Shown here: one piece after another, positions 22,052 through 36,294 of the stretch
Numbering within the stretch: the stretch's first letter is position 1
Layout of the letters: each line of letters opens with the position of its first letter
Source of the DNA: Candidatus Multivorans sp.
GTDB lineage: Bacteria; Acidobacteriota; Thermoanaerobaculia; Multivoradales; Multivoraceae
Reading direction: 5' to 3'
Length of the DNA: 64,000 bases
Assembly: GCA_965224025.1 (NCBI GenBank)
Contig: OZ245033.1
Coordinates: forward strand, 1,056,001 to 1,120,000
Made by a program: the position numbers and the translations under genes
Notes under the pieces: model-generated
The model's input: only the letters and a program-made list of their open reading frames with translations
What the model was told of the DNA's origin: nothing
Database searches by the model: none

Positions 22052-22399
22052 TGGTGGAGGCGGTGGGAATCGAACCCACGTCCGCGAGACTCGGCGCGAG
22101 GGATCTACGTGCGTAGCCTTCACTCGATTGGTCGCTGCCGGCTTGGGTAGAAGGCCACCACGGCCGGCGGTCTAGCTCCGAAGTGATCCGGTCTGAGTTC
22201 GGAGCAGCGCTCAGACGTTCGATCCACTTTGAGTGTCGCTCCTGACGGCGCCGTGAATCAAGGCTCCGGCAGGACCGTGGAGGTTTCTAAGCCGCCAGTG
22301 CCAATTCGTCGTTGGCGAGTATCAAGAAACCGGTTTACGAGTCGGACTCGGCACGCAACCCCCGAACCGCATGATCTCCCGTCGAAGCCATGCGCCCCC
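22052..22399 (-). ncRNA. ssrA: tmRNA copy 1 (tag ANDELALAA)
   Basis: 5' GGGGGCG...TTCGAC, 3' GGTTCGATTCCCACCGCCTCCACCA, tag GCCAACGACGAATTGGCACTGGCGGCTTAG. Confidence 0.95.
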
Positions 22400-22524: not shown

Positions 22525-25269
22525 CTAGAAGGTCATCCCGAGCTTCAGCCGGAACTCACGCGGAACGAGGTAGCCGCCGGCACTCGAACTCGGCCTTCCG
22601 TTGGCGAGATTCACCGACACCTGATCCTGCTCGTCGGTCACGTTCGCCACCTCGAAGCCGACTTTCCCCGCGAAGGCACCGCGAATCGGAAAGTCCCAGG
22701 CAGCGGCGACCGCCAGCGTCATCGTGTCGGGGAGCTTCTGCGCATCGCGGGGCTCGACGTAGGCCCAGGTGTTGATCCGGGCGCCCGACACGGGATGCAG
22801 CACGGCCGTGCTCGGGCGTAGCCCCCACCGCCGGCCCGCCTGTGCATTGACGATGGCACTCGCGACCACACTCTGATTGCCGATGTCCCAGCGCTTGACC
22901 CCAATGACGTGGGCTACGTACTCGCGATCGGTGTTCAGCCGGCCGTCGAGATTGCGGGCGGTGGGGTTGAGAACCCCAGTCCCAAGCTGGACTCCGCCGA
23001 GGCCCTCGAACTCGTTGCCCTGAGCGTTGAGATCATCTTCGTTGCCCTCGAGCTTGCCGACCGTCAAGTCGGTGCGCAGCGACCAACCCCCGCGGAAGTA
23101 GCGGTTGGCCGCCAGCATCAGCCCCCGGTACTCGCGGAACAGCTCGGGTCGGTTGACGATCTGTCTGAAGATCTGGCCGTCCGCGTCATATTGGTCGTTC
23201 GCCTGGTAGAGGTCTTTCGACTCGTTCCACATCAGCCGAGAGGTGAACACCCAGTTGGGGGCGAACTGCCAGTCCACACCCATCGAGACCTCGTCCTTGA
23301 ACCAGGGCTCGACTGACTGGATCTCGTTGTCGTTGGCCGCGATGAAGCTCCGTTGGAAGATGTCGTATCTCTGGGTTGCCGGGTTCCATCCGAACTGGTC
23401 GAAGGTATTCAGGCCGTTGGTGCCGCGGGTGAAGTGACGGAAGGCGAGGTCCAGCGGGAAGATCCGAACGGCGCGCCCGGCGGTCCCCCGAACCAGGAGC
23501 TTGCCGTCGGCGTTGACGTCGTAAACCGCCGAGAACCGCGGCGCGGGCTCCCGGTAGTCGTTGACCTGCTCGCCGATGTTGTTGGTTACGGTCTGATCGT
23601 CGAGGCGGAGCCCCGCGGTGACCACCCAGTGATCTCCGATGCTGATGCGGTCCTGGGCGTGGATCGCACGCATCGGGCTCTCGTATCTCGAAATGCCGTC
23701 TCCCCCCGGCGACACGTAGACCCGCTTGTTCACGGGTGTCGTGAAGCCGCTCGGCGAATTCAGGTCGTAGCCGCGACCGCGGTAGTCGGTGACGAGGTCG
23801 GCTTTCGCGTTGTAGAACATCGTGTGCTCATCGATCCCGAAGCGCCACTCGTGGTTGCCCTTGAAGAGTGACGCCGCGAGGTTGATCTGCTCGCGAGGAA
23901 AGTCGTTGAAGCCATCGCCGTTGGCCGCCGCGTTACCGTTGTATCGAACCCTGTCGTTGAGGTCCTGGTAGCGGAAGTTGGTGGCGAGCGGGCTATCCGG
24001 CGGAGCGTTGGGGTCGATTTCCCGACGATGCGTAACCCCGCGCGTCAGTTTGTCCGTGCTGTCCGCGACCTTCACCTCGAGGAAGAGGCTCCGGGTGGCG
24101 CTGAAGTTCCAGGCGGCGCTGGCGAGCTTGCTGTCGATCTCTGTCACTGAGAGGGAGTAGATATCCCCGCTGTTTCCCGCGCCCTCGTAGTCGCTCGGTG
24201 CCGTGAGGCCGGTGAACGAGAAATGATGCCGGTCTCCAGCCTGAACGTTGAACTTGCCGACGACCGGCTCGCCCCTCTGGGCAGTCTCGACAACGAAACC
24301 AGTGTTGGTCTGACTGTAGTAGCCGTCGAAGCTCTCACCGGTGGCGACGAAGAACCACGCCCTGTCGCGCCAGATGGGGCCTCCGAGTGAGGCCTCCCAG
24401 GAGTTGAGCTGCTTGTCCGGGCGAGGAAGGTCCGGAGCGACTTGGGAGACAGCGCGCCAGGTGGGGTTCTGACCGACGAAGAGCGCATCGCCGTGAAAGT
24501 CGTTCGTGCCCGACTTGATGACGGTATTGACGATCCCACTGGTGGAGCGGCCGTACTCGGCGCCGTTTCCTGCGACCTGCACGCTGATCGCGGCGGTGGA
24601 GGTGGTCGGCAGGTTGAAGCGGAACTCACCGCCGCGCCGGGTCTGGCTGATGTCGACGCCCTCGATGAACGAGCCCACTTCGTAGGTCAGGCCCCCTGGC
24701 GTGGCCATGAAGCTGCTGTCGTTGGCGGTGTTGCGTGAAGTGACCCCGGGAAGCTGATGCACAGCCGACCCGTACGCGCGACTGGAGAACGCCACTTCCT
24801 CGGTGACCTCAGAGCTCAACGTCGCCGTCAAAGTGGTCTCGAACTTGCTGATCAAGGGCGCCTCGGCGGTCACCGTGATCGCCTCGGCGGTCTCGGAGCG
24901 CAGCTCGAGGTCGATGCCGCGGCGCTCTCCGACCTGCAACTGCGTCGCTACTCTGGCCTGGCCCAGGCCCTCGAGTTCGCCGTGAACCTCGTAGGCGTCC
25001 GGCGGTAGAACGGCGAAGCGGTAGTTCCCGTCGGCATCGGTGATTGCCGTCTTGGTTCCCTGAGGGCCGGTCAGGGTCACCGTGACGCCGGGCAGGGCCC
25101 CACCCTGAGCGTCGAGAGCGCGGCCCTCGATCGTCCCAGTCTGCGGCCCGTCGGCCGACAGGGACATGGGAGCGCAGAGAACGAGGGTTGTGGCGAGAAG
25201 AAGGCGCGGTCGACTAAGTGTTTTCGTGAGCTCAGCTCCCCCAGGGTTTGGGCCGCTACGAACGGCCAA
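22525..25269 (-). CDS. Oar-like TonB-dependent receptor
   Basis: CarboxypepD_reg N-terminus, AEYGRSTSGIVNTVIKSGTNDFHG, LGGPIWRDRAWFF, C-terminal Phe; start uncertain. Confidence 0.9.
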   Translation of the reverse strand: MAVRSGPNPGGAELTKTLSRPRLLLATTLVLCAPMSLSADGPQTGTIEGRALDAQGGALPGVTVTLTGPQGTKTAITDADGNYRFAVLPPDAYEVHGELEGLGQARVATQLQVGERRGIDLELRSETAEAITVTAEAPLISKFETTLTATLSSEVTEEVAFSSRAYGSAVHQLPGVTSRNTANDSSFMATPGGLTYEVGSFIEGVDISQTRRGGEFRFNLPTTSTAAISVQVAGNGAEYGRSTSGIVNTVIKSGTNDFHGDALFVGQNPTWRAVSQVAPDLPRPDKQLNSWEASLGGPIWRDRAWFFVATGESFDGYYSQTNTGFVVETAQRGEPVVGKFNVQAGDRHHFSFTGLTAPSDYEGAGNSGDIYSLSVTEIDSKLASAAWNFSATRSLFLEVKVADSTDKLTRGVTHRREIDPNAPPDSPLATNFRYQDLNDRVRYNGNAAANGDGFNDFPREQINLAASLFKGNHEWRFGIDEHTMFYNAKADLVTDYRGRGYDLNSPSGFTTPVNKRVYVSPGGDGISRYESPMRAIHAQDRISIGDHWVVTAGLRLDDQTVTNNIGEQVNDYREPAPRFSAVYDVNADGKLLVRGTAGRAVRIFPLDLAFRHFTRGTNGLNTFDQFGWNPATQRYDIFQRSFIAANDNEIQSVEPWFKDEVSMGVDWQFAPNWVFTSRLMWNESKDLYQANDQYDADGQIFRQIVNRPELFREYRGLMLAANRYFRGGWSLRTDLTVGKLEGNEDDLNAQGNEFEGLGGVQLGTGVLNPTARNLDGRLNTDREYVAHVIGVKRWDIGNQSVVASAIVNAQAGRRWGLRPSTAVLHPVSGARINTWAYVEPRDAQKLPDTMTLAVAAAWDFPIRGAFAGKVGFEVANVTDEQDQVSVNLANGRPSSSAGGYLVPREFRLKLGMTF

Positions 25270-25482: not shown

Positions 25483-25830
25483 TGGTGGAGGCGGTGGGAA
25501 TCGAACCCACGTCCGCGAGACTCGGCGCGAGGGACCTACGTGCGTAGCCTTCACTCGATCAGTCGCCGCCGGCTTGGGTAGAAGGCCACCACGGCCAGCG
25601 GTCTAGCCCCGAAGTGATCCGGCCTGAGTTCAGAGCCGCGCTCAGGCGTTCGGTCCACTTTGAGTGTCGCTCCTGACGGCGCCGCGAATCAAGGCTCCGG
25701 CAGGACCGTGACGGCTTCTAAGCCGCCAGTGCCAATTCGTCGTTGGCGAGTGTCAAAATTCCGGTTTACGAGTCGGACTCGGCACGCAACCCCCGAACCG
25801 CATGATCTCCCGTCGAAGCCATGCGCCCCC
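25483..25830 (-). ncRNA. ssrA: tmRNA copy 2 (tag ANDELALAA)
   Basis: Full-length 348-nt homologue of copy 1 with intact acceptor stem, T-arm, CCA and tag. Confidence 0.95.
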
Positions 25831-25841
25831 AGGGACCGGGG

Positions 25842-25847
25842 ATTCTA
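25842..25847 (-). promoter_or_regulatory. -10 element (TAGAAT) of ssrA copy 2
   Basis: Same position and sequence as in copy 1. Confidence 0.6.
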
Positions 25848-25886
25848 CACCAGTCTCGGCGTTGCTCGGGGGTTGCGCGTCGGTGA

Positions 25887-26077
25887 CACCCGCCTGACCC
25901 GGGGTTGAAGGAGGGGGTCCCAGGGGACGCTCGCGCTTTCGTGGTGAGTGGAAGATCGGCGCTCGCTTGGGTCGCCTGCGCTCCGGGAAGTCGTCGGTTC
26001 AGGGAAGGTCGTCAGCAGTAGCTTGGCTCCAGCCCCCTAGGACCCCCTCCTTCAACCCCGGGCCAGGCTGGACGTCG
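25887..26077 (+). repeat. ~192-bp structured dispersed element, copy 2
   Basis: CACCCGC start; stem GCCTGACCCGGGGTTGAAGGAGGGGGTCCCAGGGG / CCCCCTAGGACCCCCTCCTTCAACCCCGGGCCAGGC. Confidence 0.85.
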
Positions 26078-26472
26078 CCGGGCAGCGGGATACGCCCGCC
26101 TCCATCAGTGAGAGCCACGATCGCGGCCAGTGGATCTGTCGGGTCACGCAGAGATGAGGAGTGCCCCCAAACGCCACCCCGGCCCTTGTTTGAGAGGCCT
26201 GCCGGTGTTCGTCGCACAGGACTCGGTCCCACGACGAGGCCGGTGTGTTCATTGACGGACATGTGATTCACACTCCGGAAACGAGTAGTCTCGACGAAGC
26301 CCAGCGCGCATGTGGCCCCGCTTGGTTCCTTGGTGTCAAGTGATCGGGCGGCAACTCAACGTGCTCGCCGCCAGAATCTGGGGCATACTCCCCGGCATGG
26401 GAATGCCTCCTACGTTGTTGATCGAGGCTGCGAGCCCTATTCGGCCTGCTGCTCTAGAAAGGTGAAGCTCTA

Positions 26473-27648
26473 GTGCGGACTCACGACGCAGGAGACGTTG
26501 CAACAGCCTTAGGGGGCAAGTTGGCTGCCCGGTCACGACACGTATGCCTTTTCCTAGGCGCTGGTGCCAGCAAAGCCTGTGGCTTGCCGGACGTGGAGGA
26601 GTTGGAGGAGACTGTGCTGGACAGCCTTGCAGCTCCGGATGAGACCGTGCTGCGGAGGCTGCTAGAGGGCCGAACTCTCGAGCAGGTTCTAAGTCGCCTC
26701 CGCCGAATTGCGGGACTCGTCTCCGGTGAAGCTGCGGTTGATGGTCTAAGAGCAAAGGACGCTGAGAATCTAGATAACGCGGTGTGCCGGGCGATTGTGG
26801 ACGCGCTGAGTGTGGATAGCGCTTCACCCACTGCAGCCCACTATCTTGCTGTCTGGGCGGCGCGAGCAAACTACCGCGTTCCTGTGGAGCTCTTTACGGT
26901 GAACTACGATCTGCTCCTTGAGAGTGCGTTGGAGCATGTGGGGGCACCCTACTTCGATGGGTTCGTCGGGGCGCTTGAGGCTCGGTTCCATACCGAGTTA
27001 GTGGAGGCAACAGAGGGCAGGGATGACGAGACGGTGCCTCGGTTCTTTGTTCGGCTTTGGAAGCTGCACGGCTCTGTCAACTGGGTTCGAAGGGAGGAAG
27101 GAGGGATCGTTAGACTTGGACAGGTCGCCCCTAACACGCGACCGGCGGCGATCTATCCGTCGGATACAAAGTACGAGGAGTCTCGACGTGTCCCGTTCCT
27201 TGTCCTTCAGGACCAGTTCAGGAGGGCCCTTCATCGGCCGGAAACACTTGTGTTGATTAGCGGCTATTCCTTTGGGGACGAACACCTTAACGAGCACATT
27301 TACGGCGCGGCGACACGCCGAGCTCGGTCGGAGTTCATCGTGTTCTGCTTTGACGAGATTCCCGAGCCCCTAGCGGATCGCGCCATGTTGACGCCGAACC
27401 TCCAAGTCTTAGCCGCCCAAGAGGCGATTATCGGTGGCGTCAGGGGGAATTGGCAGGAACCGAAAACTCCTGTGACGGATGTCTGGCGCGATGATGCCTT
27501 CACGCTCGTCGACTTCAACGAACTCGCGAGACACTTGGCGCGCAGCACGGCCCCACAGTACGAAGACGGACGGGCCTTGGAGGAGTTGCTAGAGCGGCTC
27601 GGCGTCGGTGGCGGATCTGCGGTTGAGGGCGGAGAGAAGGGTGGTTGA
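26473..27648 (+). CDS. SIR2-like (SIR2_2) NADase, Sir2-HerA defence effector
   Basis: FLGAGAS, FTVNYD, KLHGSVNW, IYPS, GYSFGDEHLN. Confidence 0.9.
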   Translation: MRTHDAGDVATALGGKLAARSRHVCLFLGAGASKACGLPDVEELEETVLDSLAAPDETVLRRLLEGRTLEQVLSRLRRIAGLVSGEAAVDGLRAKDAENLDNAVCRAIVDALSVDSASPTAAHYLAVWAARANYRVPVELFTVNYDLLLESALEHVGAPYFDGFVGALEARFHTELVEATEGRDDETVPRFFVRLWKLHGSVNWVRREEGGIVRLGQVAPNTRPAAIYPSDTKYEESRRVPFLVLQDQFRRALHRPETLVLISGYSFGDEHLNEHIYGAATRRARSEFIVFCFDEIPEPLADRAMLTPNLQVLAAQEAIIGGVRGNWQEPKTPVTDVWRDDAFTLVDFNELARHLARSTAPQYEDGRALEELLERLGVGGGSAVEGGEKGG

Positions 27649-29403
27649 GCAGGATCCGACACGAATCGGGCAAGTCCTTCGGGTACGGGGCGCTGCCGTC
27701 ACGGTCGCGCTCGATCCCGACTTGGCCGGCACCTCGCCGATCTTCCGAGGGCGCCTTCACGCTGTAGGACAGATCGGATCGTTAGTTCGAGTTCCGCAGG
27801 GAGCTGTGGATCTCGTTGCCACCGTGGTCTTCGTCGGTATCACTGAAGGACAGAGCGACGTTGCGCCGACATCGGCACTCCAGCCGGAGGAACGGTACCT
27901 GCAGGTACAGTTACTCGGACAGATTGATCGCGGAACAGGGACGTTTCAGCGTGGTGTGGGGTCGTATCCTGGACTTGACGATCCAGTGCACTTCGCAACT
28001 CCCGAAGAACTGAAGGCGGTCTTTCCTGGCCCCGGGGATGAGAACCTACCTCTAGGACGTCTCGCTGCGGCTGAGGAGACTCCCGTGTGCGTGGAGGCAA
28101 AGAGCTTTGTTGTCCGTCACGCGGCGGTCGTTGGGTCGACGGGCTCGGGCAAGACCAGCGCCGTTGCGGCCACGCTCCAAGGCTTCGTCAAGGGAGGTTG
28201 GGATGCTGCGAACATCGTTGTGGTGGACCCACACGGCGAGTACTCCCGAGCCATGGACGGGTACGCGTCGGTCAGGAGCGTCCTAGGAAGTGGCGCAAAC
28301 CGCCTGCGTGTTCCGTTTTGGGCGATGGCGGCGAACGATATTGTCCGCGTCTTTTGTGGGTCTTGGGCGAGGGGACGTTCTACAAACGTTTCGTCGAACT
28401 CGTTACGCAGCACCGGCGGGAGTTCGTTAGGGCCGCCAACTGGCTTTCATTGGAGCCCTCGGCGGTTACAGCCGATACACCAGTGCCGTTCGATATTCGA
28501 GAAGTGTGGTATCAGCTTGATGCTGAGAACAACATGACTCTGAAAGAAAAGGGCAACCCAGACACCGTGTGTAAGAAGAGCGAAGGCAACGCTTCAGAAC
28601 TGCATCCCGCGACCTTTACACCCTACGGTGCTGGCGGTAGGTCGCCCCACCAGGGCCCGTACTACGGAGTCCATGGCACCTTACCGAACCAACTGCGGCT
28701 CGGCCTGCTGGACCCTCAACTGCGGGCCTTTCTGTCGCCGGAGGGTGAGACGGACGGTACAGACCCGATGATCGAGGTCGTGCAGAGTTGGCTCGGCGAT
28801 GAACGCCCAGTATCTGTGCTCGACTTTAGCGGAGTGCCAGCGATTGCGGCGGACCTTGCGATAGGCGTCGTACTGAACTTGATCTTTGAGATCTCTCTCC
28901 GTTGCGACTTCGGCGGGCCTGGCATCGGGCGGCCCTGTCCCGTCTTGATAGTCCTTGAGGAAGCGCATCGCTACCTTGGAAGCGAGGCCGGCGCTCTGAC
29001 ACGTCAATCCGTGAACAGGATTGCTCGGGAGGGTCGAAAGTACGGCGTCGGCATCATGCTTGTCTCGCAACGTCCGACGGAGCTCCCAAGTACTGCGCTG
29101 GCGCAATGCGGAACGTTGGTTGCACTCAGGCTTTCGAACTCGGGGGACCAGGGGGCGATTCGAGCGGCTCTGCCTGACGAGATTGGGGGCTTGGCTGCCG
29201 CCCTGCCTTCACTGCGTACGGGGGAGGCGATTGTGAGCGGGGAGTCCATGGTATTGCCGGCTCGCATTCTTTTTGATATGCCTGAGCCTAGGCCGAAGGC
29301 AGATGATCCAAGCCTAGAGGCTTGGCGCGGCAAGCCTGCGGTCCCGGACGTTGCGCCAGCTTTGATGGCTTGGCGTGGAACACATGAGGTTGCAGATGAT
29401 TGA
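27641..29403 (+). CDS. herA: HerA/DUF87 ATPase, split by a -1 frameshift at ~28359
   Basis: N-part: HAS barrel, GSTGSGKT, DPHGEY; C-part: LEEAHRYL, IAREGRKYG, SQRPTEL, LRTGEAI. Confidence 0.87.
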
Positions 29404-29614
29404 TTGGAAACCTGTGAGTAACTCTACGCGGATCGTCGCGGAAGCGTACGATCCGACGGCGGAGACGATTTACGTGCGCTTCCCTAGTGGAGTTGAGTGG
29501 TGGTACTCGGCATGTCCACCGGAGGTCTGGGGGGCTTTCACTGCTCCAGGGCAGTCGCGCGGCGCGTACATCCATGAGGTACTGAATCACAAGCCCCACG
29601 GGCGTCACGGCTAG
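29396..29614 (+). CDS. KTSC-domain protein
   Basis: S..I...AYDP...TIYVRFPSG...Y..CPPEVW..F......S.G.Y; overlaps herA stop by 8 bp, RBS GAGGT. Confidence 0.8.
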   Translation: MIDWKPVSNSTRIVAEAYDPTAETIYVRFPSGVEWWYSACPPEVWGAFTAPGQSRGAYIHEVLNHKPHGRHG

Positions 29615-29789
29615 CAAAGTGAGGCTAGGCATGCCTCCGTCCGTTGTGCCGGTGTTGTATGGAGGTGTAGGACGTTAGACGCCTAACCCGAACGAGCTTG
29701 GCAAGTACGCCGGGAAGAACCCTGTAACAGCGCCGGATCCGCGGCGACGTATGGCGGACCTCGGAGGCCGCGCGGGTACCTACGGAGGG

Positions 29790-29890
29790 GAACTCGGCTC
29801 TCGCTTCGGTCGGCCCCGTTCCCGGATGGGGCTGGTCTGGATCACGGTGACGACTGTCGCTGCCGACAGCGTTGGGGACTCTCCCCTAGG
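29790..29890 (+). repeat. Partial/degenerate copy of the ~192-bp element (internal core only)
   Basis: CTCGCTTCGGTCGGC and GTCGCTGCCGACAGC at 55-bp spacing, versus 56 bp in copy 1. Confidence 0.55.
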
Positions 29891-30006
29891 GATTTCTGCC
29901 GGCGAGCTTGCGGCAGGGACGCTCTCGCGCGCGGAACAGGTGGCCGCCACGGGTGATCGTCAGAGGCGGCTCGGATGACGTCCTGCAGGAACTGATCCCG
30001 GCTCGC

Positions 30007-32922
30007 TTATGGCCCACCGGTCCGCGGGCGCGTGGACTTTCCGCCATGCACCGTCGGCTCGGCGCACCACTGCCTGCGGAGCAGGTCGAGGGGTTCCATC
30101 GCGTCATCGGGCAGTCCGAGGAGATCCACGAGCACAGCGCGGTCAAGTGCCTGACGGGTTTCGTCGCGGTAGGCCTCGTTGGCGGGGAGAAACTCCCGGT
30201 CGCAGAAGTCGGCGAAGAGGTGTACGGAGGCGGCGTGTTGGGCGTCGGTCAGGCGGCGCGGGTCGAGGACGGGGAGGTCCGGGAGCGTCGAGAGGGTGAG
30301 GATGGCGCGGCCCTGTTGCTGGCGGGCGCCGAGCCACCAGAAGGACATTAGGCCGAGCGTGGTGTTGGACCAGAGGACGACAGGCGTTTCCCAGCGCTCG
30401 TCGTGGAGCTTGAAGTTAGGCCAGGCTCGGCCGCCGAGCGTCTTTCCGGGCGTCAGGCAGGCGGCGAGCGGCTGGGAGTTGAGACGGAAGTCCAGGTTGA
30501 AGTGCAGCTTAGTGGCGTGGCGGCGCCATGCTCTCACCGCACGCTCGCCGCAGTCGGGGCGTGGTTCCGCCCGGCAGTCCGGCTGCACGGTCAAGCGGCT
30601 TTCCCGTGATGCGTCGTGGCCCCACAGCGTCGGGTACGTGGGTACTGCCCCGTGGATGGTCGGGAGGATGTCGAATGGACCCCTGGGCGGCGTGCGTTCA
30701 GGATCGCCGTTGATGTCTCGGTGGAGTAATCCCCGACTGCCGATCTCGGAGAGCGGGACCACCGGGACCATAGCTTCCTCGTTCCGCCGGGGGAGCTTCA
30801 GCCGTCCCTTCGGCAAGGCCAGCATGGTCTGGGCGAGCCCGGCTTCCAGGATGCCCCAGGCGCCCCCGTTCTGAAGCTCCGTGCGGACGAAGACGCCGGC
30901 TTCATCTGCGTCCGTCAGAGGGATTCGTCCGGTCGATAGCATCGTTCGCTTGGCGGCGACCTCGTCGATGCGACGAGCGACGGAGACCGCTTCGAGGATC
31001 GAGCGCGGCCGTTGCCTGAGGTTCGTGAACAGTGTGTCGGACCTCCCGCTGCCGGTCTTTCTGGCCACGACGAGGACTTCTGCCATGCCTGTGTCGGCAG
31101 AGAAAGCGCGTCCCGACTGACCCGTATCGGCTATGGAGACGACCGTGAGTCCTTGGTAGCGGCCCGCGAACAGGTCGCGAGCGTTCCGCCAAGAACCGCC
31201 CTGCACGAAGGCTGCCGGCAGGACGAATGCCGCGACCCCGCCGGGCCGCAGCTTGGCGTGTGCCAGATCAACGAAGTTGGATGCCAAGCCTGCGTTGCCG
31301 TGGCCGGCTGGTTCGGCGAGCGCCCTCCTGTACTCGGCGAGCCGCCTTGACATCACCGCCTGTTCGCTCCTGCTCGTCGCGAAGCCCGCGAACGAGGGCA
31401 CGGGCACGGTCGTGCTCTCGTGGTTCGTCGGCCTGGTGAAAGGAGGGTTCATGATGACCAGGTCGAAGCCGCGGTCCGGCGCATCGACGTCGCGAAGCTG
31501 CTCCCGATCCCCGCCGGCGCCGCGGACCTGGGCCGCTCCCGTGCCGAACAACGGCAGCACGGGGTCGGACGACAGCAAGTCGAGTGAGCCGATGGCATGG
31601 GCTCGACCGCTGCCTTCGGGTTGTGCACCGTAGGGCATGGTGTAGATGCGGGTGTCATCGAAGGTCGCGTTGGGATGCACGCTCGACACGATGGACGCGG
31701 TGAGGTGCGTTGCCGCAGGCATGATGTCGGCGCCGAGCAGGACGCGCTCCATCATCGCGGCGTGCAGGGCCCGGTCGTCCCCGCCGGCGCGGCGATGCCG
31801 TGCGGCGACGCGATGGTAGGCGGCGGACAGCAGAGCACCGGTCCCGCAGGCGAAGTCGGCGATCCGCAGGCGGAGCACGTCGTCGGCGCTTGCCCAGTCG
31901 ACCTCGAGACGGTCGACCGCCAGTTCGGCTAGCAAAGTGGCGCTCGAGGGGAGGGTGTAAAAGGTGGCGAGGAACTTTCGGTCGGCGATCAGCCGCTGGA
32001 ACATGACTCCCGAGAGATCGTTCAGGGTCGTCGTGCCGATGTCCGCCAGTTCCGCGGCGGTCGCGATCAGACGGTCCAGGATCCCTGCCGCGTCGCGATC
32101 CGGGATCCTCTTCAACAGGTCGCGCGCGACCTTGAAGATCGGCCAGTAGTTGATCGTCAGCACATGCCGCCAACTGTCGAGGACCTTGATCTTCGACGCC
32201 TTTCCCCGCGCGCCGCGCAGGGAGCTGGGGTCCTCGATGTCGTGGTCGCCGGCGATGGCGGTCTGGAAGATGAAGGCGTTGAGCAGGATCGCCATCGCCA
32301 TCCGGGTGGTCTGCTCTCCTTCCTCCTGGCGCAGGCAGTCGGCTACGCTTCGCGGGACTTCCGGGCTTCGGTCGCGTGTCGTGGCCTGGAGCGTGCGCGC
32401 CGTGTTCAGAACGGCTCGTTCGAGAATCTCGGCGCCGCGGTCGATTCGCTGTTCGGACAGCGAGATCTGCTCGATGCAGTCCGCCAGTTCGTCGATTCCG
32501 CCGCGTAGCCAGCCGGAGCGCGGCCATCTGCGGACCGGGTCGCCGGGCAGGCGCGTCCCGGAGAAGGTGCAGAACAGAAAGGTTCCTGCCCGGATGCCGT
32601 CCAGGAGGTCGCCGGACCCTTCGCCGAGTTGACCGGGAATGCGAACCGCTACGGCCGCCTCCATGAGTTCGCCCTCGGGTTCCAGGATTCTCCCCAGCCG
32701 GTTTCGCGCGTCGGCCTCTACCGTCCTTGCGGGTTCGTACTCCGTCTCGATGACGACAGCCATGCCTCCCGGATGGCGAACGATGATGTCCGGCTGGGCG
32801 CCGGCGCTGTCCCGGAGGACGCCGGTCTGTTCGGCGCTGACGGCGGTCTTCCAGCGTGGATGCTTGCTCCGAAGAACGCTTGCCAGTGCGCCGTTGAAGG
32901 CGGTTTCGACGGTGCGGGGCAT
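30007..32922 (-). CDS. Single-chain type IIG-like restriction-modification enzyme (nuclease-like N-term, N6-adenine MTase, TRD)
   Basis: PDIIV...IETE, FYT, DFACGTGALL (motif I), MNPPF (motif IV). Confidence 0.8.
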   Translation of the reverse strand: MPRTVETAFNGALASVLRSKHPRWKTAVSAEQTGVLRDSAGAQPDIIVRHPGGMAVVIETEYEPARTVEADARNRLGRILEPEGELMEAAVAVRIPGQLGEGSGDLLDGIRAGTFLFCTFSGTRLPGDPVRRWPRSGWLRGGIDELADCIEQISLSEQRIDRGAEILERAVLNTARTLQATTRDRSPEVPRSVADCLRQEEGEQTTRMAMAILLNAFIFQTAIAGDHDIEDPSSLRGARGKASKIKVLDSWRHVLTINYWPIFKVARDLLKRIPDRDAAGILDRLIATAAELADIGTTTLNDLSGVMFQRLIADRKFLATFYTLPSSATLLAELAVDRLEVDWASADDVLRLRIADFACGTGALLSAAYHRVAARHRRAGGDDRALHAAMMERVLLGADIMPAATHLTASIVSSVHPNATFDDTRIYTMPYGAQPEGSGRAHAIGSLDLLSSDPVLPLFGTGAAQVRGAGGDREQLRDVDAPDRGFDLVIMNPPFTRPTNHESTTVPVPSFAGFATSRSEQAVMSRRLAEYRRALAEPAGHGNAGLASNFVDLAHAKLRPGGVAAFVLPAAFVQGGSWRNARDLFAGRYQGLTVVSIADTGQSGRAFSADTGMAEVLVVARKTGSGRSDTLFTNLRQRPRSILEAVSVARRIDEVAAKRTMLSTGRIPLTDADEAGVFVRTELQNGGAWGILEAGLAQTMLALPKGRLKLPRRNEEAMVPVVPLSEIGSRGLLHRDINGDPERTPPRGPFDILPTIHGAVPTYPTLWGHDASRESRLTVQPDCRAEPRPDCGERAVRAWRRHATKLHFNLDFRLNSQPLAACLTPGKTLGGRAWPNFKLHDERWETPVVLWSNTTLGLMSFWWLGARQQQGRAILTLSTLPDLPVLDPRRLTDAQHAASVHLFADFCDREFLPANEAYRDETRQALDRAVLVDLLGLPDDAMEPLDLLRRQWCAEPTVHGGKSTRPRTGGP

Positions 32923-32943
32923 GAGGAGTCGGAGGGGGGCTTC

Positions 32944-33627
32944 CTAGTCCAGGTCCGGGGCTTCTCCGACGGTCAGGATGCGTGGCGGTTCGGTCCAAGG
33001 ATACAGGTCCATGTCGAACCGGCGGAGCCACTTCAACTCGGAGCATCGGATCGCAAGCGCGAGTCGCTGCCACCGCTCATTGACGACCCGACCGTAGCTG
33101 GTGGTCAGGCGCAGCTGCTGATCGCTGTCCCTGTAGCCGCTGAGCAGCGGCACGAGGAGGATGCCTGTGTCGCTGCCGTCATCGGCAGTGCTGCTCTTGA
33201 TGATGAACCCCAAGTACGTTTTGCCGCTCGGAAAGGCGACTTCGATGAGACTGCCGTCATCGAAGGTGTCGCAGATGAGCTGGTCAACGAGGTCGCCTTT
33301 CTTGTCCGCCAGTCGCCGCCGAGCGCGGAGGGGCTTGTACCACCAGTTCAGGGGCACCGGCGCCAGCGCCGCGAGGAGCAAGCTGCCGACTGCCGCGCCG
33401 CTCACCTGTAACGCTGACCACCCCGGCAGGAGATCGAGCCAGCTATACAGGCTAGGGCACAACTGCCCAGCGACAGCAGCCACCAGATAGAGAGCCAGTC
33501 CGACCAATGTCGCCCTGAAGACGACGTGGTAGCCGGATTCTCGCCGGAGACCGAACTTCCAGATGTTCGTCAAGCGCAGGAGTAGGTACCCGGCGAGAGC
33601 CGGGACGAAGAACTCCCAAGCAGGCAC
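32944..33627 (-). CDS. Hypothetical membrane protein (3 TM plus C-terminal GKTYLG...PLLSGYR domain)
   Basis: Hydrophobic N-half, soluble C-half; directly upstream of the R-M gene. Confidence 0.65.
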   Translation of the reverse strand: MPAWEFFVPALAGYLLLRLTNIWKFGLRRESGYHVVFRATLVGLALYLVAAVAGQLCPSLYSWLDLLPGWSALQVSGAAVGSLLLAALAPVPLNWWYKPLRARRRLADKKGDLVDQLICDTFDDGSLIEVAFPSGKTYLGFIIKSSTADDGSDTGILLVPLLSGYRDSDQQLRLTTSYGRVVNERWQRLALAIRCSELKWLRRFDMDLYPWTEPPRILTVGEAPDLD

Positions 33628-33867
33628 TTATTCGAGCTTCCGCTTCCGCTCGGACTCCCCGCCGTCGCCCGTCTCCGCGACCTCGATACCCCGGTTGACG
33701 CTTGAGATTGTCTTCTGCACTCGCTTGCTCGCGAGGAAATCGCCGACGTTCTCGACGTAGAGAGCCCCGGATCCAGTCACCCTGAGTCGGTCGCCGTTCG
33801 CCCTCTCGCTGCTGTCGTTCTTCTGGTTTTGGGCGTCGGTCTCCTTCGGCAATGCGTCTACAGACAC
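33628..33867 (-). CDS. Small hypothetical protein
   Basis: 79 aa; stop abuts the start of the next gene (0-bp gap). Confidence 0.55.
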   Translation of the reverse strand: MSVDALPKETDAQNQKNDSSERANGDRLRVTGSGALYVENVGDFLASKRVQKTISSVNRGIEVAETGDGGESERKRKLE

Positions 33868-34071
33868 AGGCCTGGAACTACACTTCCCGACCGGCTGGGT
33901 TCCGTGGGGATCGGCTGCACGATGGTTCCTCCGGTTGTGGATCGGGTTCAGCGGAATTCTGTGCGGAAAACTTAGCCCATAAGCTGTCGACTTTCAACCT
34001 GCTGTCGGGACCGGTCAGGGACCGGTCACCGCCAGCCCTACGGTGACTTGACCCGGAGGACCGGTGGACAC

Positions 34072-36294
34072 CTACCGAGAGTCGCTCGGCCGGTAGGCCC
34101 GGGCCGTGTGGGCCTCCACGTCCTCCCAGTACAGCCATGCCGGCTTGAACCGCCTTTCCGAGAGCAGGCGGGCCTGGTCGAAGAAGTGCGGCGACTCGGG
34201 GCGATGGCTCTGGCCGTAGTGCAGGTAGCTCGCTCCGCGGGTCTTCTCGCCGAACTCGTAGACGGCCATGTAGGAGGCGCCGGTGGCGGCGTAGCGCAGC
34301 TTGCGCACCTCGCCGTTCTCGAGCGTGGTGGGCGGCGAGTGGTACAGCGTAAACGCTACGCCGAGCGGGCCCCGGACGCCGGCGAGCGGCAGGCTCGGCT
34401 CGTCGTCCGAGAAGGGAACGCCTGAGGCTGAGGGCTGGTTCGCGTGGCGCTGGATGCGGTGGATGTCGCCGTAGGGGACGCGCCAGTCGCCGTAGAACTC
34501 GGTGAGCTTCGAAGCGGCTTGCTCCAGGGCCAGGAAGCGTGCTGCCATGTCGCGCACGTACTCGGGCTTGAGGGTTTCGACCGGATAGCCGCGGCCGTAG
34601 AGCTCCTCGTACCAGCCGACCGCCAGGGTCGTCTGCGTGGATGCGAGCGAGCTCTTGAAGTCCCAGTCCAGCAGGTGCTCGAGGTAGGGGCGGACGCGGG
34701 CGGCGAGTTCCGGGTCCGTGCCTTCGAGCTGCTCGAGCCTGCGCGCATATCCGGGCAGCTTGGTCATCGGCCAGTAGAGGGTCGTGTCGTAGGCGAGCGC
34801 CTGGAAGTCCTCGAAGGTGATGTCGCGGGCGTTGCGGAGCAGGTAGCGGGCCATCTTCGCGCGGCGCTTGTCGTCGTGCTTGTCCTCGACCATGTAGGGC
34901 GGGAAGTCGAGCAGCGACGGGTTGCCGTCGTCGGTGGTCGTGAACGGCGTCGAGTTGCAGTTCTGGACGTATCCGGACGGCGGGTTGAGGACCTGCGGCA
35001 GTTCGTCGATGGGGTGGAACGGACCCCACTCGTTGTTCGGGTCGGCGCCGTCGACGGGTTTGGTCCAGTCGACCGACGGATCACGGCGGGCTACGGCGCC
35101 GTTGTAGAGGTAGAAGATGTTGCCGTCGGCGTCCGCGTAGGTCGTGTTGAAGGTCTGCAGCAGTTGCATGGACACCGCGGCGTACCACTCCTCGAAACTG
35201 CGCGCCTTGGCCTGCGCCAGCGCCTGGACCATGCGGCTGCCTTCGTAGAGGCGCGGTACGCGGACGGCCAGGTAGTGCCGGTCGTCCTCCCTGGCAATGA
35301 TCGGGCCGTAGCGCGACCGCCGGAGGACGACCTCGCGCGGCACAAGCGCGTCGCCCTCGCGGACGTGGATCGTGGAGCTCCATTCCTCGGCGTCGCGATA
35401 GCCGTCGCCGTAGCGGTACTTGAGAGGGTCGGTCGGGTGGTCGAAGGTCAGGCGGTAGGTGTCCGAGATGTCGGCGGCGTTCACGGTGTATGCCCAGCCC
35501 AGCCGCTCGTTGAATCCGGCGGTAGGCAACGGACCGCCCGGGTACATGGCGCCCGAGAAGTTGAGCCCCTCGTCGCTCACGACGTGCATCTCCGTGAACA
35601 TCCCCGAGCCGTACCAGGGCTGGTGGGGATTGATGAAGAGCATCGCGTTGCCGTCGCGCGTCTTCGACGGGGCGACGGCCCACTGGTTCGAGCCCAGCGA
35701 CGCGGCGAGTTCCTCCGCCAGACGAGGGAGCCTGCCGCGCGGCGCGTGGGCGGCGCCGAGCAGCCGGCCGAGGATCATGTAGCGCTCGAAGGCCAGCACG
35801 TGGAAGGGCTCCATGCGCGTCAGCAGGCGCGGCTTCTCGTCCGGGTGCTTCGCCAGGTAGTCGTTGTAGCCGGCCGCGAAGCCTTCGGCGATGCGCTGGA
35901 TGTTCTCGGGCAGGGTGGCGAAGTCGCGGCGCGAGGTCTCGACCAGGTCGAAGAGCGCCACCTCCAGGTCGCTGCGGAACCCGGACACGCCGACGACCTC
36001 CGCGTAGCGCCCGAGCGCCTTGATGTAGGTGTCCTCGAGCTGGAAGAAGTGGTCCTCGCACTGCGCCCACGCGGAGCCGAAGGCGACCGCGGCGTCGGTG
36101 GACCCTCTGATGTGCGGCACTCCCCACTCGTCGCGGTGAATGACGACGTCGGCGGCCCAGTCGGGCGTGCCCTGGGCGCCGGTAGCGGCCGCCGGTCTCT
36201 CTTGTGCGGTTTCGGTGTCGACCGCGCAGCCGATGGCCGCGAGCGAAAGGGCCGCTGCAGCGATTCGCCTCGTCCAGGGGTGTCTCAAGCGCAT
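34072..36294 (-). CDS. Penicillin acylase family (Ntn-hydrolase S45) probable lipoprotein
   Basis: RDEWGVPHI, GSNQWAV nucleophile, NPHQ, lipobox-like AAIGC. Confidence 0.9.
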   Translation of the reverse strand: MRLRHPWTRRIAAAALSLAAIGCAVDTETAQERPAAATGAQGTPDWAADVVIHRDEWGVPHIRGSTDAAVAFGSAWAQCEDHFFQLEDTYIKALGRYAEVVGVSGFRSDLEVALFDLVETSRRDFATLPENIQRIAEGFAAGYNDYLAKHPDEKPRLLTRMEPFHVLAFERYMILGRLLGAAHAPRGRLPRLAEELAASLGSNQWAVAPSKTRDGNAMLFINPHQPWYGSGMFTEMHVVSDEGLNFSGAMYPGGPLPTAGFNERLGWAYTVNAADISDTYRLTFDHPTDPLKYRYGDGYRDAEEWSSTIHVREGDALVPREVVLRRSRYGPIIAREDDRHYLAVRVPRLYEGSRMVQALAQAKARSFEEWYAAVSMQLLQTFNTTYADADGNIFYLYNGAVARRDPSVDWTKPVDGADPNNEWGPFHPIDELPQVLNPPSGYVQNCNSTPFTTTDDGNPSLLDFPPYMVEDKHDDKRRAKMARYLLRNARDITFEDFQALAYDTTLYWPMTKLPGYARRLEQLEGTDPELAARVRPYLEHLLDWDFKSSLASTQTTLAVGWYEELYGRGYPVETLKPEYVRDMAARFLALEQAASKLTEFYGDWRVPYGDIHRIQRHANQPSASGVPFSDDEPSLPLAGVRGPLGVAFTLYHSPPTTLENGEVRKLRYAATGASYMAVYEFGEKTRGASYLHYGQSHRPESPHFFDQARLLSERRFKPAWLYWEDVEAHTARAYRPSDSR

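What the first reader, a model, noticed from the sequence alone, without database searches (positions are those of the whole stretch)
26473..29614. Sir2-HerA defence operon with a translationally coupled third gene encoding a KTSC-domain protein
Seen: a SIR2-like gene, herA and a 72-aa KTSC gene each overlap the previous stop by 8 bp, and the block is visibly less GC-rich than the flanks. Known: Sir2-HerA is a two-gene NAD+-depleting anti-phage system, and KTSC domains have been reported to bind single-stranded nucleic acid. Inference: a three-component variant in which KTSC is a sensor, regulator or antitoxin of the NADase complex. I do not know of KTSC as a described Sir2-HerA component.
Basis: partly seen in the sequence, partly recalled or inferred. 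Interest (0 to 1): 0.75.

Follow-up and report, generated by a model that had tools for sequence, protein, structure and literature searches.

The report
Sir2-HerA defence operon with split-off KTSC subunit
This is a Sir2-HerA anti-phage operon, broken in this strain by a one-base deletion in herA, whose small third gene (KTSC) is conserved across a whole branch of these systems and appears to be a detached piece of HerA itself.

Summary
SIR2 (26473-27648), herA (27641-29403) and a 72-aa KTSC gene (29396-29614) overlap by 8 nt each and sit in a lower-GC block. herA has lost one G from a G4 run (28365-28367).

The third gene is not a chance neighbour. Of 53 loci in species genomes that encode a close KTSC relative, 51 carry SIR2-herA-KTSC in the same order. 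These span many bacterial phyla and haloarchaea. KTSC is the best conserved of the three proteins.

From the HerA side, KTSC marks one HerA clade (support 99). Every placed row with known gene context has KTSC: most as a separate downstream ORF, one as a C-terminal fusion (L089), one a homologue of the solved HerA. More distant Sir2-HerA systems lack it.

That clade includes the closest homologue of the Paenibacillus sp. 453MF HerA. That HerA is about 95 residues longer than the window-clade HerA. The published "unique C-terminal arm domain" lies there, and my KTSC model matches those HerA chains.

Best reading: KTSC is HerA's arm module made as a separate, translationally coupled subunit. It is probably not an antitoxin. 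Its position on HerA and its role are inferred.

Verdict: a new variant of a known system, of moderate interest.

The parts
26473..27648 (+). SIR2-family NADase gene (391 aa). The catalytic residues N144, D146 and H199 are present.
   Evidence: PADLOC PDLC04093 E 8.2e-105. Pfam SIR2_2. Aligns to PsSIR2 chain 8w9l_A at E 1.1e-44, with the NYD and KLHGS motifs opposite N163/D165/H212 (residue numbers from the PMC11472057 passage read).
27641..29403 (+). herA (HerA/FtsK-type ATPase), a pseudogene in this strain. It starts at a GTG that overlaps the SIR2 stop by 8 nt. The frame shifts by -1 at the G run.
   Evidence: ORFs 27608-28537 and 28087-29403 lie in different frames. PADLOC PDLC04105 matches at 7-254 and 263-572. 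The junction in relatives is read.
28365..28367 (+). Site of the lesion: GGG where close relatives have GGGG (one G lost).
   Evidence: Alignment with L002, GTCTT-GGGCG against GTCTTGGGGCG. The only indel in laid contigs is 'G put in behind 28364'. An intact 590-aa herA is present in L062.
29396..29614 (+). KTSC-domain gene (72 aa). Its ATG overlaps the herA stop by 8 nt, and GAGG lies at 29386-29389.
   Evidence: PF13619 27.2 bits. AF2 model with pLDDT 92.6 and a beta3-alpha2-beta pattern. Foldseek TMq 0.84-0.85 to the KTSC crystal structures 7x8c and 4rgi. 51 of 53 homologous loci share the operon.
25839..29893 (.). Variable segment that carries the cassette. It is missing from two genomes of the same genus.
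   Evidence: G196 has 773 bp in place of 25839-29893. G236 lacks 25862-34079. G349 is collinear with the window.
25483..25830 (-). tmRNA gene at the left border of the variable segment (context only).
   Evidence: ARAGORN. Conserved in all 5 same-genus genomes searched.

Best explanation
The block is a Sir2-HerA abortive-infection system. It belongs to a large, horizontally spread clade in which HerA works with a KTSC module.

In this clade the roughly 73-aa KTSC protein is usually encoded by its own ORF, which overlaps or abuts the herA stop. Ribosomes that finish herA can therefore restart on it. This coupling would give about one KTSC per HerA subunit (inferred). In some relatives the same module is fused to the HerA C-terminus.

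In the Paenibacillus sp. 453MF system, whose structure is solved, I read a diverged copy as the distal part of the 'C-terminal arm domain'. The authors report that this arm wraps the neighbouring RecA-like domain and stabilises the split-spiral HerA hexamer.

I therefore read the window's KTSC as the detached arm subunit of HerA. It would bind the HerA ring and support its assembly or conformation. The HerA-Sir2 assembly in turn switches on the Sir2 NADase and the HerA ATPase/helicase, as published for the Paenibacillus system.

Shown here:
- the gene linkage;
- the coupling;
- the natural fusions;
- the clade distribution;
- the fold match.

Inferred: physical binding, its site on HerA, and the stabilising role.

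In this particular strain herA has lost one G from a G4 run. The system is therefore most likely inactive, and KTSC could only be made from its own Shine-Dalgarno site.
For: Linkage from the KTSC side
- 51 of 53 KTSC-family loci in one-genome-per-species contigs carry SIR2-herA-KTSC.
- The herA stop to KTSC start gap is -8 (16 loci), -4 (14), -1 (4) or +4 to +26 (13) among the 51.
- Median identity to the window, over 44 loci (42 for SIR2) that passed my intact-frame and gap filters out of 51: KTSC 73%, HerA 66-68%, SIR2 58%.

From the HerA side
- In 80 metagenome loci, the 13 HerAs closest to the query profile all have KTSC: 12 downstream, 1 fused. Of the other 67, 57 have none and 10 could not be judged.
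- FastTree on 87 rows gives one clade (support 99) of 33 rows. It holds 30 rows with a separate KTSC (two rows are duplicates), the L089 fusion, P0149, and P0143 whose gene context is unknown. No row outside the clade has KTSC.
- An IQ-TREE quick tree of 42 rows recovers the same clade with SH-aLRT 99.

Fusions
- L089: a 721-aa ORF with DUF87, HerA_C and KTSC (71.9 bits, aa 661-716).
- L063: KTSC at 52 bits.

Paenibacillus link
- The KTSC model hits HerA chains of 8wld, 8wof, 8wiv and 8wj3 at TMq 0.77-0.83 and probability 1.00. These come directly after the two KTSC crystal structures. The next hits have E > 0.1.
- Window-clade HerA aligns only to residues 10-601 of the 696-aa chain.
- The tail of the close homologue P0149 hits PF13619 as its only Pfam family (E 0.0041). 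It folds as beta3-alpha2-beta at pLDDT 75-96, after a disordered linker.
- The P0149 model aligns over 682-696 columns to chains with 602-673 residues modelled, and over 556-568 columns to the other chains of these entries, which have 354-560 modelled.
- The arm description comes from passages of PMC11472057.

KTSC follows HerA without SIR2 in L175.

Lesion.
Against: - Foldseek prints no residue ranges, and the two aligners that would print them were unavailable. That the match lies in the arm is therefore inferred, not read off.
- The sequence signal between the fused Paenibacillus-type tail and KTSC is weak. Pfam gives 17.2 bits, below the cut-off of 25. hhalign against the window family gives E 0.044 and probability 1.2%. 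None of 20 long HerA representatives had a Pfam KTSC hit at E <= 0.01.
- The window-clade KTSC is very strongly conserved. It has its own invariant residues (W4, W35, C40, W45, the PGQSRG motif). By contrast the P0149 and 8wiv_A tails do not even align to each other. The split protein may therefore be under different, additional constraints and may do more than brace the ring.
- No fused form of the window's own KTSC subfamily was found among longer proteins. The tool itself calls this weak evidence.
- The protein is not basic (pI 6.4). This gives no support to nucleic-acid binding and is neutral for the brace idea.
Confidence: 0.62

Rival explanations
1. KTSC is a separate nucleic-acid sensor or adaptor. 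It would bind phage DNA or RNA ends and load or trigger HerA. The fusions would reflect this functional link rather than a structural brace.
For: - Iyer et al. call KTSC DNA-binding or RNA-binding, by prediction (passages read).
- It is the most conserved protein of the operon, with subfamily-specific invariant surface motifs.
- KTSC folds are common in phage proteins.
- It accompanies HerA with different effector partners.
Against: - I found no experimental nucleic-acid binding data.
- The pI is 6.4.
- The equivalent part of the Paenibacillus HerA is described as contacting the neighbouring subunit, not DNA.
- This reading is not exclusive of the best explanation.
Confidence: 0.2
2. KTSC is an antitoxin-like inhibitor that holds the Sir2 NADase off until infection.
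For: It is a small ORF tightly coupled to a toxic effector system. Degraded copies of the cassette are frequent: 7 of 51 loci plus the window, by my frame test. That is consistent with a costly system.
Against: - It is covalently fused to HerA in L089 and L063.
- It lies last in the operon, and it follows HerA rather than SIR2.
- Sir2 in the solved system is reported as auto-inhibited on its own and activated by HerA (abstract of PMC11472057, seen).
- The lesions that break the cassette hit herA, not KTSC.
Confidence: 0.05
3. The herA frameshift is an assembly or base-calling error at a homopolymer, and the system is intact in this organism.
For: The lesion is one G in a G4 run. The same sample also holds a +G form. 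Records of close relatives look like long-read MAG assemblies; this is my own inference from the record titles.
Against: - In two runs of one sample, a 166-nt contig is identical to the window (0 other letters; depth 35.8 and 43.8).
- The +G contig differs at 9 other positions, so it is another strain and not the corrected form of this one.
- Caveat: these runs may be the window's own source and are therefore not independent.
Confidence: 0.12
4. KTSC is an unrelated neighbour that happens to lie next to herA.
For: None beyond its small size and a Pfam score close to threshold (27.2 against 25).
Against: 51 of 53 loci share the operon across many phyla and haloarchaea. The overlap is conserved, natural fusions exist, and KTSC presence is restricted to one HerA clade.
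Confidence: 0.01

Closest known systems
Paenibacillus sp. 453MF SIR2-HerA (PDB 8WLD, 8WIV and others; NAR 2024, PMC11472057)
   Same: - It is the closest solved relative of both proteins: HerA 324 bits (E 2.1e-95), SIR2 156 bits (E 1.1e-44).
- Its homologue P0149 falls in the same HerA clade.
- The SIR2 catalytic N, D and H are conserved.
- The HerA chains hold a part with the KTSC fold.
   Different: There HerA is 696 aa with a fused 'arm domain' (aa 576-696), and the system is described as two genes. Here HerA stops after the conserved WR helix (about residue 601 of the solved chain), and the KTSC module is a separate 72-aa ORF with far higher sequence conservation. The passages I read never call the arm KTSC, and that paper was not among the hits for 'KTSC' plus 'HerA'.
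E. coli and S. aureus Sir2-HerA (8SU9/8SUB, 8XAU, 8YHX), and more distant Sir2-HerA in general
   Same: SIR2 NADase plus HerA ATPase in a two-gene core. They match the same PADLOC models at weaker scores.
   Different: They are more distant (HerA 72-167 bits). In my samples, HerAs outside the KTSC clade had no KTSC: 57 of 57 judgeable metagenome loci and 5 of 5 genomes searched whole.
HerA + KTSC + endoDNase variant mentioned by Iyer et al. 2022 (PMC9503650, section 3.7.1, 'LA, unpublished observations')
   Same: It makes an explicit HerA-KTSC gene coupling. L051 (Kineococcus) has a YhcG PDDEXK nuclease, a 513-aa protein and KTSC, which fits the remark in part.
   Different: The remark concerns systems with a nuclease in place of the sirtuin and gives no data. 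The window has the sirtuin. In L051 the middle protein gave no HerA hit with Pfam or with my HerA profile.
Stand-alone KTSC proteins with solved structures (7X8C Methanolobus vulcani; 4RGI YPO2434)
   Same: Same fold: TMq 0.84-0.85, rmsd 1.4-1.6 A, 24% identity. Same size.
   Different: Their function is unknown. The sequence relation is only marginal (E 0.0086 and 0.028). In the window family the first Y of the central Y-x-Y is a W (WWY), and there are extra invariant residues.
DUF4297-HerA systems (8ZIQ, 9C1M)
   Same: A HerA of the same broad family (192-206 bits) with an alternative effector.
   Different: The effector is different. I did not examine whether they have KTSC.

Membership tests
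Sir2-HerA defence system | SIR2-family protein that matches the system-specific profile | tested here: met
   PADLOC PDLC04093, E 8.2e-105, profile positions 1-387 of 395.
Sir2-HerA defence system | Sirtuin catalytic residues (N, D, H) | tested here: met
   N144, D146 and H199 align to N163, D165 and H212 of PsSIR2 (residue list from the passage read).
Sir2-HerA defence system | HerA-type ATPase encoded next to SIR2 on the same strand | tested here: met
   PDLC04105 matches at 7-254 and 263-572. Pfam DUF87 and HerA_C also match. The gene overlaps SIR2 by 8 nt.
Sir2-HerA defence system | Intact herA reading frame | tested here: not met
   One G is missing at 28365-28367, and the N-terminal frame ends at 28537. 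The locus is a member by descent but is probably inactive.
Sir2-HerA defence system | NAD+ depletion and phage defence | not testable with these tools
   Needs experiments.
KTSC domain (PF13619) | Score above Pfam's gathering cut-off | tested here: met
   27.2 bits against a cut-off of 25, E 3.1e-6, profile positions 1-53 of 58. The margin is narrow.
KTSC domain (PF13619) | KTSC fold | tested here: met
   AF2 model with pLDDT 92.6. Foldseek TMq 0.84 to 7x8c and 0.85 to 4rgi. 19 BFVD hits at E <= 0.001, most of them named KTSC.
HerA clade with a KTSC module (includes the Paenibacillus-type HerA) | HerA falls inside the clade | tested here: met
   Clade support is 99 in FastTree (33 rows) and SH-aLRT 99 in IQ-TREE quick (22 rows). 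Window-clade rows and P0149 are both inside.
HerA clade with a KTSC module (includes the Paenibacillus-type HerA) | KTSC module fused to HerA as a C-terminal arm | tested here: not met
   It is a separate ORF here. HerA aligns only to residues 10-601 of the 696-aa solved chain. No longer fused relative of this KTSC subfamily was found.
HerA clade with a KTSC module (includes the Paenibacillus-type HerA) | KTSC protein binds HerA at the arm position | not testable with these tools
   Needs a solved or biochemically tested complex.
Toxin-antitoxin pair (antitoxin reading of KTSC) | The small protein neutralises the toxic enzyme, and its loss is toxic | not testable with these tools
   Indirect evidence speaks against it: fusion to HerA and linkage to HerA without SIR2.

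The most novel reading that the evidence does not exclude
The free KTSC subunit is a regulated, exchangeable 'arm'. Its binding to or release from the HerA ring would set the ring's state (split spiral or closed) and so gate Sir2 NADase activation. Phages encode many stand-alone KTSC-fold proteins, some fused to portal or virion proteins. Phage KTSC proteins could then be either the trigger that this subunit senses or decoys that displace it as a counter-defence. More broadly, KTSC would be a protein-protein brace for ring-shaped translocases rather than a nucleic-acid-binding domain.
Probability: 0.12. Interest if true: 0.75.

Novelty: new variant of a known kind. Interest (0 to 1): 0.5.

Why it matters
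Sir2-HerA is treated as a two-gene system. PADLOC 2.0.0 has no model that matches this KTSC, and the structural papers I read describe two genes.

For a whole clade, a third small ORF belongs to the system. In my scan that clade turned up in many bacterial phyla and in haloarchaea. Anyone who clones only two genes may get an inactive or misassembled complex.

The result also gives a domain identity (KTSC) to the 'unique C-terminal arm' of the Paenibacillus HerA. It supplies natural split and fused versions with which to test what that arm does in hexamer assembly and NADase activation.

It offers a first concrete functional context for the uncharacterised KTSC domain.

For this genome the practical message is ordinary: the cassette sits in a variable spot beside tmRNA and is probably dead.

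Tried and rejected
- Complex prediction of HerA (alignment A4) with KTSC (A5) gave no verdict: runs 0.36, 0.00, 0.07 against a mark of 0.32. I do not use it either way.
- The fold search libraries pdb_via and pdb_via_wide were not on the machine. I could not obtain residue ranges for the KTSC match in the HerA chains.
- The viral-contig scan with the KTSC alignment found 33 pattern matches but no relative. The cassette was not found on phage contigs.
- The search for homologous proteins for longer proteins with the window KTSC returned none. The tool calls this weak evidence.
- Twenty long HerA representatives were scanned with Pfam for a fused KTSC at E <= 0.01, and none hit. The fused forms came instead from the locus survey.
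- A profile of the window KTSC family against PDB sequences at E <= 10 found only 4rgi and 7x8c, not the HerA chains.
- hhalign of that profile against the P0149 tail aligned in register but was not significant.
- The promoter and terminator scan of 25800-30050 found nothing above the shuffled expectation.
- Programmed frameshifting at the G run was considered and dropped. Close relatives simply have GGGG and an open frame.
- In L051 the 513-aa gene between the nuclease and KTSC could not be shown to be HerA.
- Supplementary files of the papers were closed. Supplementary figures S7, S8 and S11 of PMC11472057 may show the arm in detail, and I could not see them.
Full report
**1. What is in the window**

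Three co-oriented genes occupy 26473-29614.

- The first (391 aa) is a SIR2-family protein. Pfam SIR2_2 gives E 4.6e-12. PADLOC model PDLC04093 gives E 8.2e-105 over its whole length. Its alignment to the SIR2 chain of the Paenibacillus sp. 453MF complex (8w9l_A, E 1.1e-44) keeps the NYD and KLHGS motifs. These hold the residues that the authors name as catalytic: N163, D165 and H212 there, and N144, D146 and H199 here (passage of PMC11472057 read).
- The second is herA. Pfam DUF87 and HerA_C match, but the gene lies in two frames. PADLOC HerA model PDLC04105 matches positions 7-254 in the ORF that ends at 28537 and positions 263-572 in the ORF that ends at 29403.
- The third is a 72-aa ORF. 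It passes the Pfam KTSC cut-off narrowly (27.2 against 25 bits) and matches no PADLOC model.

Both junctions are 8-nt overlaps: GTGGTTGA at 27641-27648 and ATGATTGA at 29396-29403. Purine-rich motifs lie upstream of each start. GC content is 0.58-0.62 across the block and 0.65-0.69 beside it.

**2. The break in herA**

Relatives read ...VPFWA..(I/V)FxGxxGxxTF... straight through the junction.

- The nearest genome record (L002, 97% identical in KTSC) has GTCTTGGGGCG where the window has GTCTTGGGCG. One G of a G4 run is missing at 28365-28367.
- A genome of the same genus (G349, locus L062) has an open herA that is 94-98% identical.
- I laid Logan contigs of four runs on 27600-29650. The only indel reported was 'G put in behind 28364'.
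- Two runs of one sample hold both forms. One is a 166-nt contig identical to the window (depth 35.8 and 43.8). The other is a 167-nt contig with the extra G and nine other differences, which is a second strain.
- Two runs from two other studies hold contigs of 13.2 kb and 7.6 kb. These span herA and KTSC with 46 and 42 substitutions, and their single gap is the one +G indel reported.

The lesion is therefore strain-specific and is probably real. The two runs that reproduce it may be the window's own source, so they are not independent.

In L002, herA is broken in a different way, by a ~1.3-kb insertion that encodes a DDE_Tnp_1/DUF4372 transposase. By my simple frame test, 7 of the 51 cassettes found elsewhere also have a split or prematurely stopped herA.

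**3. Is the third gene part of the system? The view from KTSC**

- The window genome has a single KTSC match, this one.
- The protein has 258 relatives at E <= 0.001. The 120 listed are all at least 70% identical, and nearly all are 73 aa.
- A scan of one genome per species (185,579 species) with an alignment of these proteins gave 76 pattern matches and 53 confirmed loci.
- In 51 of the 53, tblastn finds SIR2 and both halves of HerA directly upstream, in the same order and spacing.
- The 51 loci come from the following groups:
  - Acidobacteriota, Gemmatimonadota and Binatia;
  - Alpha-, Beta-, Gamma- and Deltaproteobacteria;
  - Planctomycetes, Chloroflexi and Eubacteriales;
  - Rhodothermales, Verrucomicrobiota and Actinobacteria;
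  - Polyangiales and Eisenbacteria;
  - two haloarchaea.
- The two exceptions are L051 (Kineococcus) and L054, where the KTSC match is partial.
- Four plasmids carry the cassette. RefSeq names the genes 'SIR2 family protein', 'ATP-binding protein' and 'KTSC domain-containing protein'.
- No relative was found in viral contigs.
- The herA stop and the KTSC start overlap by 8, 4 or 1 nt in 34 of the 51 loci. They lie 4-26 nt apart in 13. The other 4 are degraded copies.
- Median identity to the window is 73% for KTSC, 66-68% for HerA and 58% for SIR2, so the smallest protein is the best conserved. These medians use 44 loci (42 for SIR2) that passed my intact-frame and gap filters out of 51.

**4. 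The view from HerA**

*Sample from the window's phylum.* Among 401 genomes, 44 match PDLC04105 at E <= 1e-10.

- The window-type cassette occurs only in four genomes of one genus, and all four have KTSC.
- Six further genomes have distant Sir2-HerA pairs (27-33% identity). One of these (L056) has a strong KTSC directly after herA (73.9 bits).
- The other five have no KTSC anywhere in the genome.

*Metagenome sample.* I scanned with a broad HerA alignment. I then searched these loci with a KTSC profile that I built from 150 or so stored KTSC proteins.

- The 13 HerAs that score highest against the query profile all have KTSC. Twelve have it as the next ORF, and one (L089) has it fused.
- Of the remaining 67, 57 have no KTSC within at least 250 nt downstream. 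Ten end too early to judge.

*Trees.* A FastTree of 87 near-full-length HerAs puts all KTSC-linked rows in one clade with support 99. The clade has 33 rows:

- 30 with a separate KTSC (two rows are duplicates);
- the L089 fusion;
- P0149;
- P0143, whose gene context is unknown.

The sister clade of 10 rows, and everything else, has none or could not be judged. An IQ-TREE quick tree of 42 rows that I chose from these recovers the same clade at SH-aLRT 99.

Two KTSC-linked HerAs were left out of the trees because the profile covers them only partly.

- L063 is an N-terminally truncated HerA-KTSC fusion.
- L075/L175 is a distant HerA followed by KTSC. Its upstream gene encodes a 645-aa protein with no Pfam match and no SIR2 signal.

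KTSC therefore tracks HerA, not the sirtuin.

**5. Fusions, and the link to the solved structure**

Pfam confirms natural fusions. L089 is a 721-aa open frame with DUF87, HerA_C and KTSC (71.9 bits, aa 661-716). L063 has KTSC at 52 bits at its C-terminus.

The AlphaFold model of the window KTSC is confident (pLDDT 92.6). Its strands are at 15-19, 24-28 and 34-37, its helices at 42-48 and 55-61, and a last strand at 68-71.

Foldseek against the PDB gives these hits in order:

- the two KTSC crystal structures 7x8c and 4rgi (TMq 0.84-0.85);
- chains of 8wld, 8wof, 8wiv and 8wj3 (TMq 0.77-0.83, probability 1.00, 18-24% identity);
- nothing better than E 0.17 after that.

Those chains are the HerA of the Paenibacillus sp. 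453MF SIR2-HerA complex. It is the closest solved relative of the window-clade HerA (324 bits). It is 696 aa long, and the alignment stops at its residue 601.

The paper describes aa 576-696 as a 'C-terminal arm domain'. It calls this a 'unique C-terminal extension' that wraps the neighbouring RecA-like domain and stabilises a split-spiral hexamer (abstract and passages).

A close homologue of that HerA is P0149 (684 aa, 527 bits).

- Its 81-residue tail, scanned alone, hits PF13619 as its only Pfam family. The hit is below the cut-off (E 0.0041, 17.2 bits).
- In an AlphaFold model the tail folds, after a disordered linker at 605-622, into strands 626-632, 637-642 and 647-650, helices 655-663 and 667-675, and strand 681-683, at pLDDT 75-96. 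This is the same order of elements as KTSC.
- The model aligns over 682-696 columns to the chains that have 602-673 residues modelled. It aligns over only 556-568 columns to the other chains of these entries, which have 354-560 modelled.
- P0149 sits deep inside the KTSC clade.

I conclude that the distal arm of the studied HerA is a diverged, fused KTSC module, and that the window encodes the same module as a separate subunit. Foldseek prints no residue ranges, and the aligners that would have printed them were not available. This last step is therefore inferred from several concordant results, not read off directly.

**6. How it most likely works**

The published work on the Paenibacillus system reports that HerA binding changes the Sir2 oligomer and activates the NADase and nuclease of Sir2 and the ATPase and helicase of HerA (abstract of PMC11472057).

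I propose that KTSC is made in step with HerA by translational coupling. It would bind the outside of the HerA ring where the fused arm sits and help set the ring's assembly or conformation.

- **Shown:** linkage, coupling, fusion, clade restriction and fold.
- **Inferred:** binding, its site and its effect.

The very high conservation of the split protein, with its own invariant residues, contrasts with the fast-diverging fused tails. This leaves room for an added role such as sensing.

An antitoxin role is unlikely. The module can be fused to HerA, it follows HerA rather than SIR2, and the copies that decay do so in herA.

In this strain the cassette is probably inactive.

**7. Genomic setting**

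The block lies in a variable spot on the 5' side of a tmRNA gene.

- G349 is collinear with the window.
- G196 has 773 bp in place of 25839-29893.
- G236 goes from the tmRNA straight to the penicillin-amidase gene and lacks 25862-34079.
- Two other genomes of the genus carry a 60-69% identical cassette at a different locus.

This pattern, with the GC dip, indicates horizontal gain.

**8. Novelty**

Searches for 'KTSC' with 'HerA', 'KTSC' with 'SIR2', 'KTSC domain', and 'KTSC' as a whole word from 2020 returned one relevant statement. Iyer et al. 2022 note, as an unpublished observation, HerA coupled to a KTSC protein and an endoDNase in place of the sirtuin.

The two structural papers I consulted were read as passages only (PMC11472057; PMC11514289). 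Neither appeared among the KTSC hits.

The conserved SIR2-herA-KTSC operon, its clade, the split/fused relation and the KTSC identity of the arm are thus not in print within the library searched. Subscription journals and supplementary files were not visible to me.

It is a new variant of a known system, not a new kind of system.

Noticed in passing
window 22052-22399 (-) and 25483-25830 (-): There are two full-length tmRNA genes with the same tag peptide (ANDELALAA). They differ at about 20 of 348 positions and flank a 914-aa TonB-dependent-receptor-like gene (22525-25269). In the same genus, G349 also has two copies. G196 has one copy and no receptor gene. G236 has the receptor gene and one copy.
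   Followed up: partly
window ~25857-26090: A ~200-nt stretch between the tmRNA and SIR2 recurs many times at 67-77% identity in all five same-genus genomes searched. It looks like a dispersed repeat or miniature mobile element.
   Followed up: no
window 30007-32922 (-): A 971-aa protein with weak methyltransferase signals (Pfam Eco57I E 2.3e-4; PADLOC MTase_II, mad2 and PglX at weak E-values) lies next to the cassette in the same variable region. It is 76.6% identical over part of its length in G196 and absent from G236. It may belong to another defence system.
   Followed up: partly
L002 3680-4975 (Ca. Multivorans MAG record): The nearest relative of the cassette has herA interrupted by a ~1.3-kb element that encodes a DDE_Tnp_1/DUF4372 transposase on the opposite strand. 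This inactivation is independent of the window's frameshift.
   Followed up: yes
L051 2922-9272 (Kineococcus sp.): Here a KTSC of the window's subfamily (60% identity) follows a YhcG/DUF1016 PDDEXK nuclease and a 513-aa protein with no Pfam or HerA-profile match. A KAP-family NTPase follows it. This may be the nuclease variant mentioned by Iyer et al..
   Followed up: partly
L175 2027-7346 (G077): A distant HerA (581 aa) with a canonical KTSC 10 nt downstream is flanked by co-oriented 645-aa and 433-aa proteins that have no Pfam match. It is a HerA-KTSC system with unknown partners.
   Followed up: partly
BFVD hits to the KTSC model (no window coordinates): The KTSC fold is common in phage proteins: 19 hits at E <= 0.001. 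They include larger proteins, one annotated as a PBSX-family portal, and proteins annotated as structural or virion proteins.
   Followed up: no
G186 C1:4449516-4451237 and G332 C1:2151358-2153076 (L060, L061): Two genomes of the same genus carry a second lineage of the SIR2-herA-KTSC cassette (60-69% identity to the window's). It lies at a locus far from their tmRNA gene, which implies separate acquisitions within one genus.
   Followed up: partly
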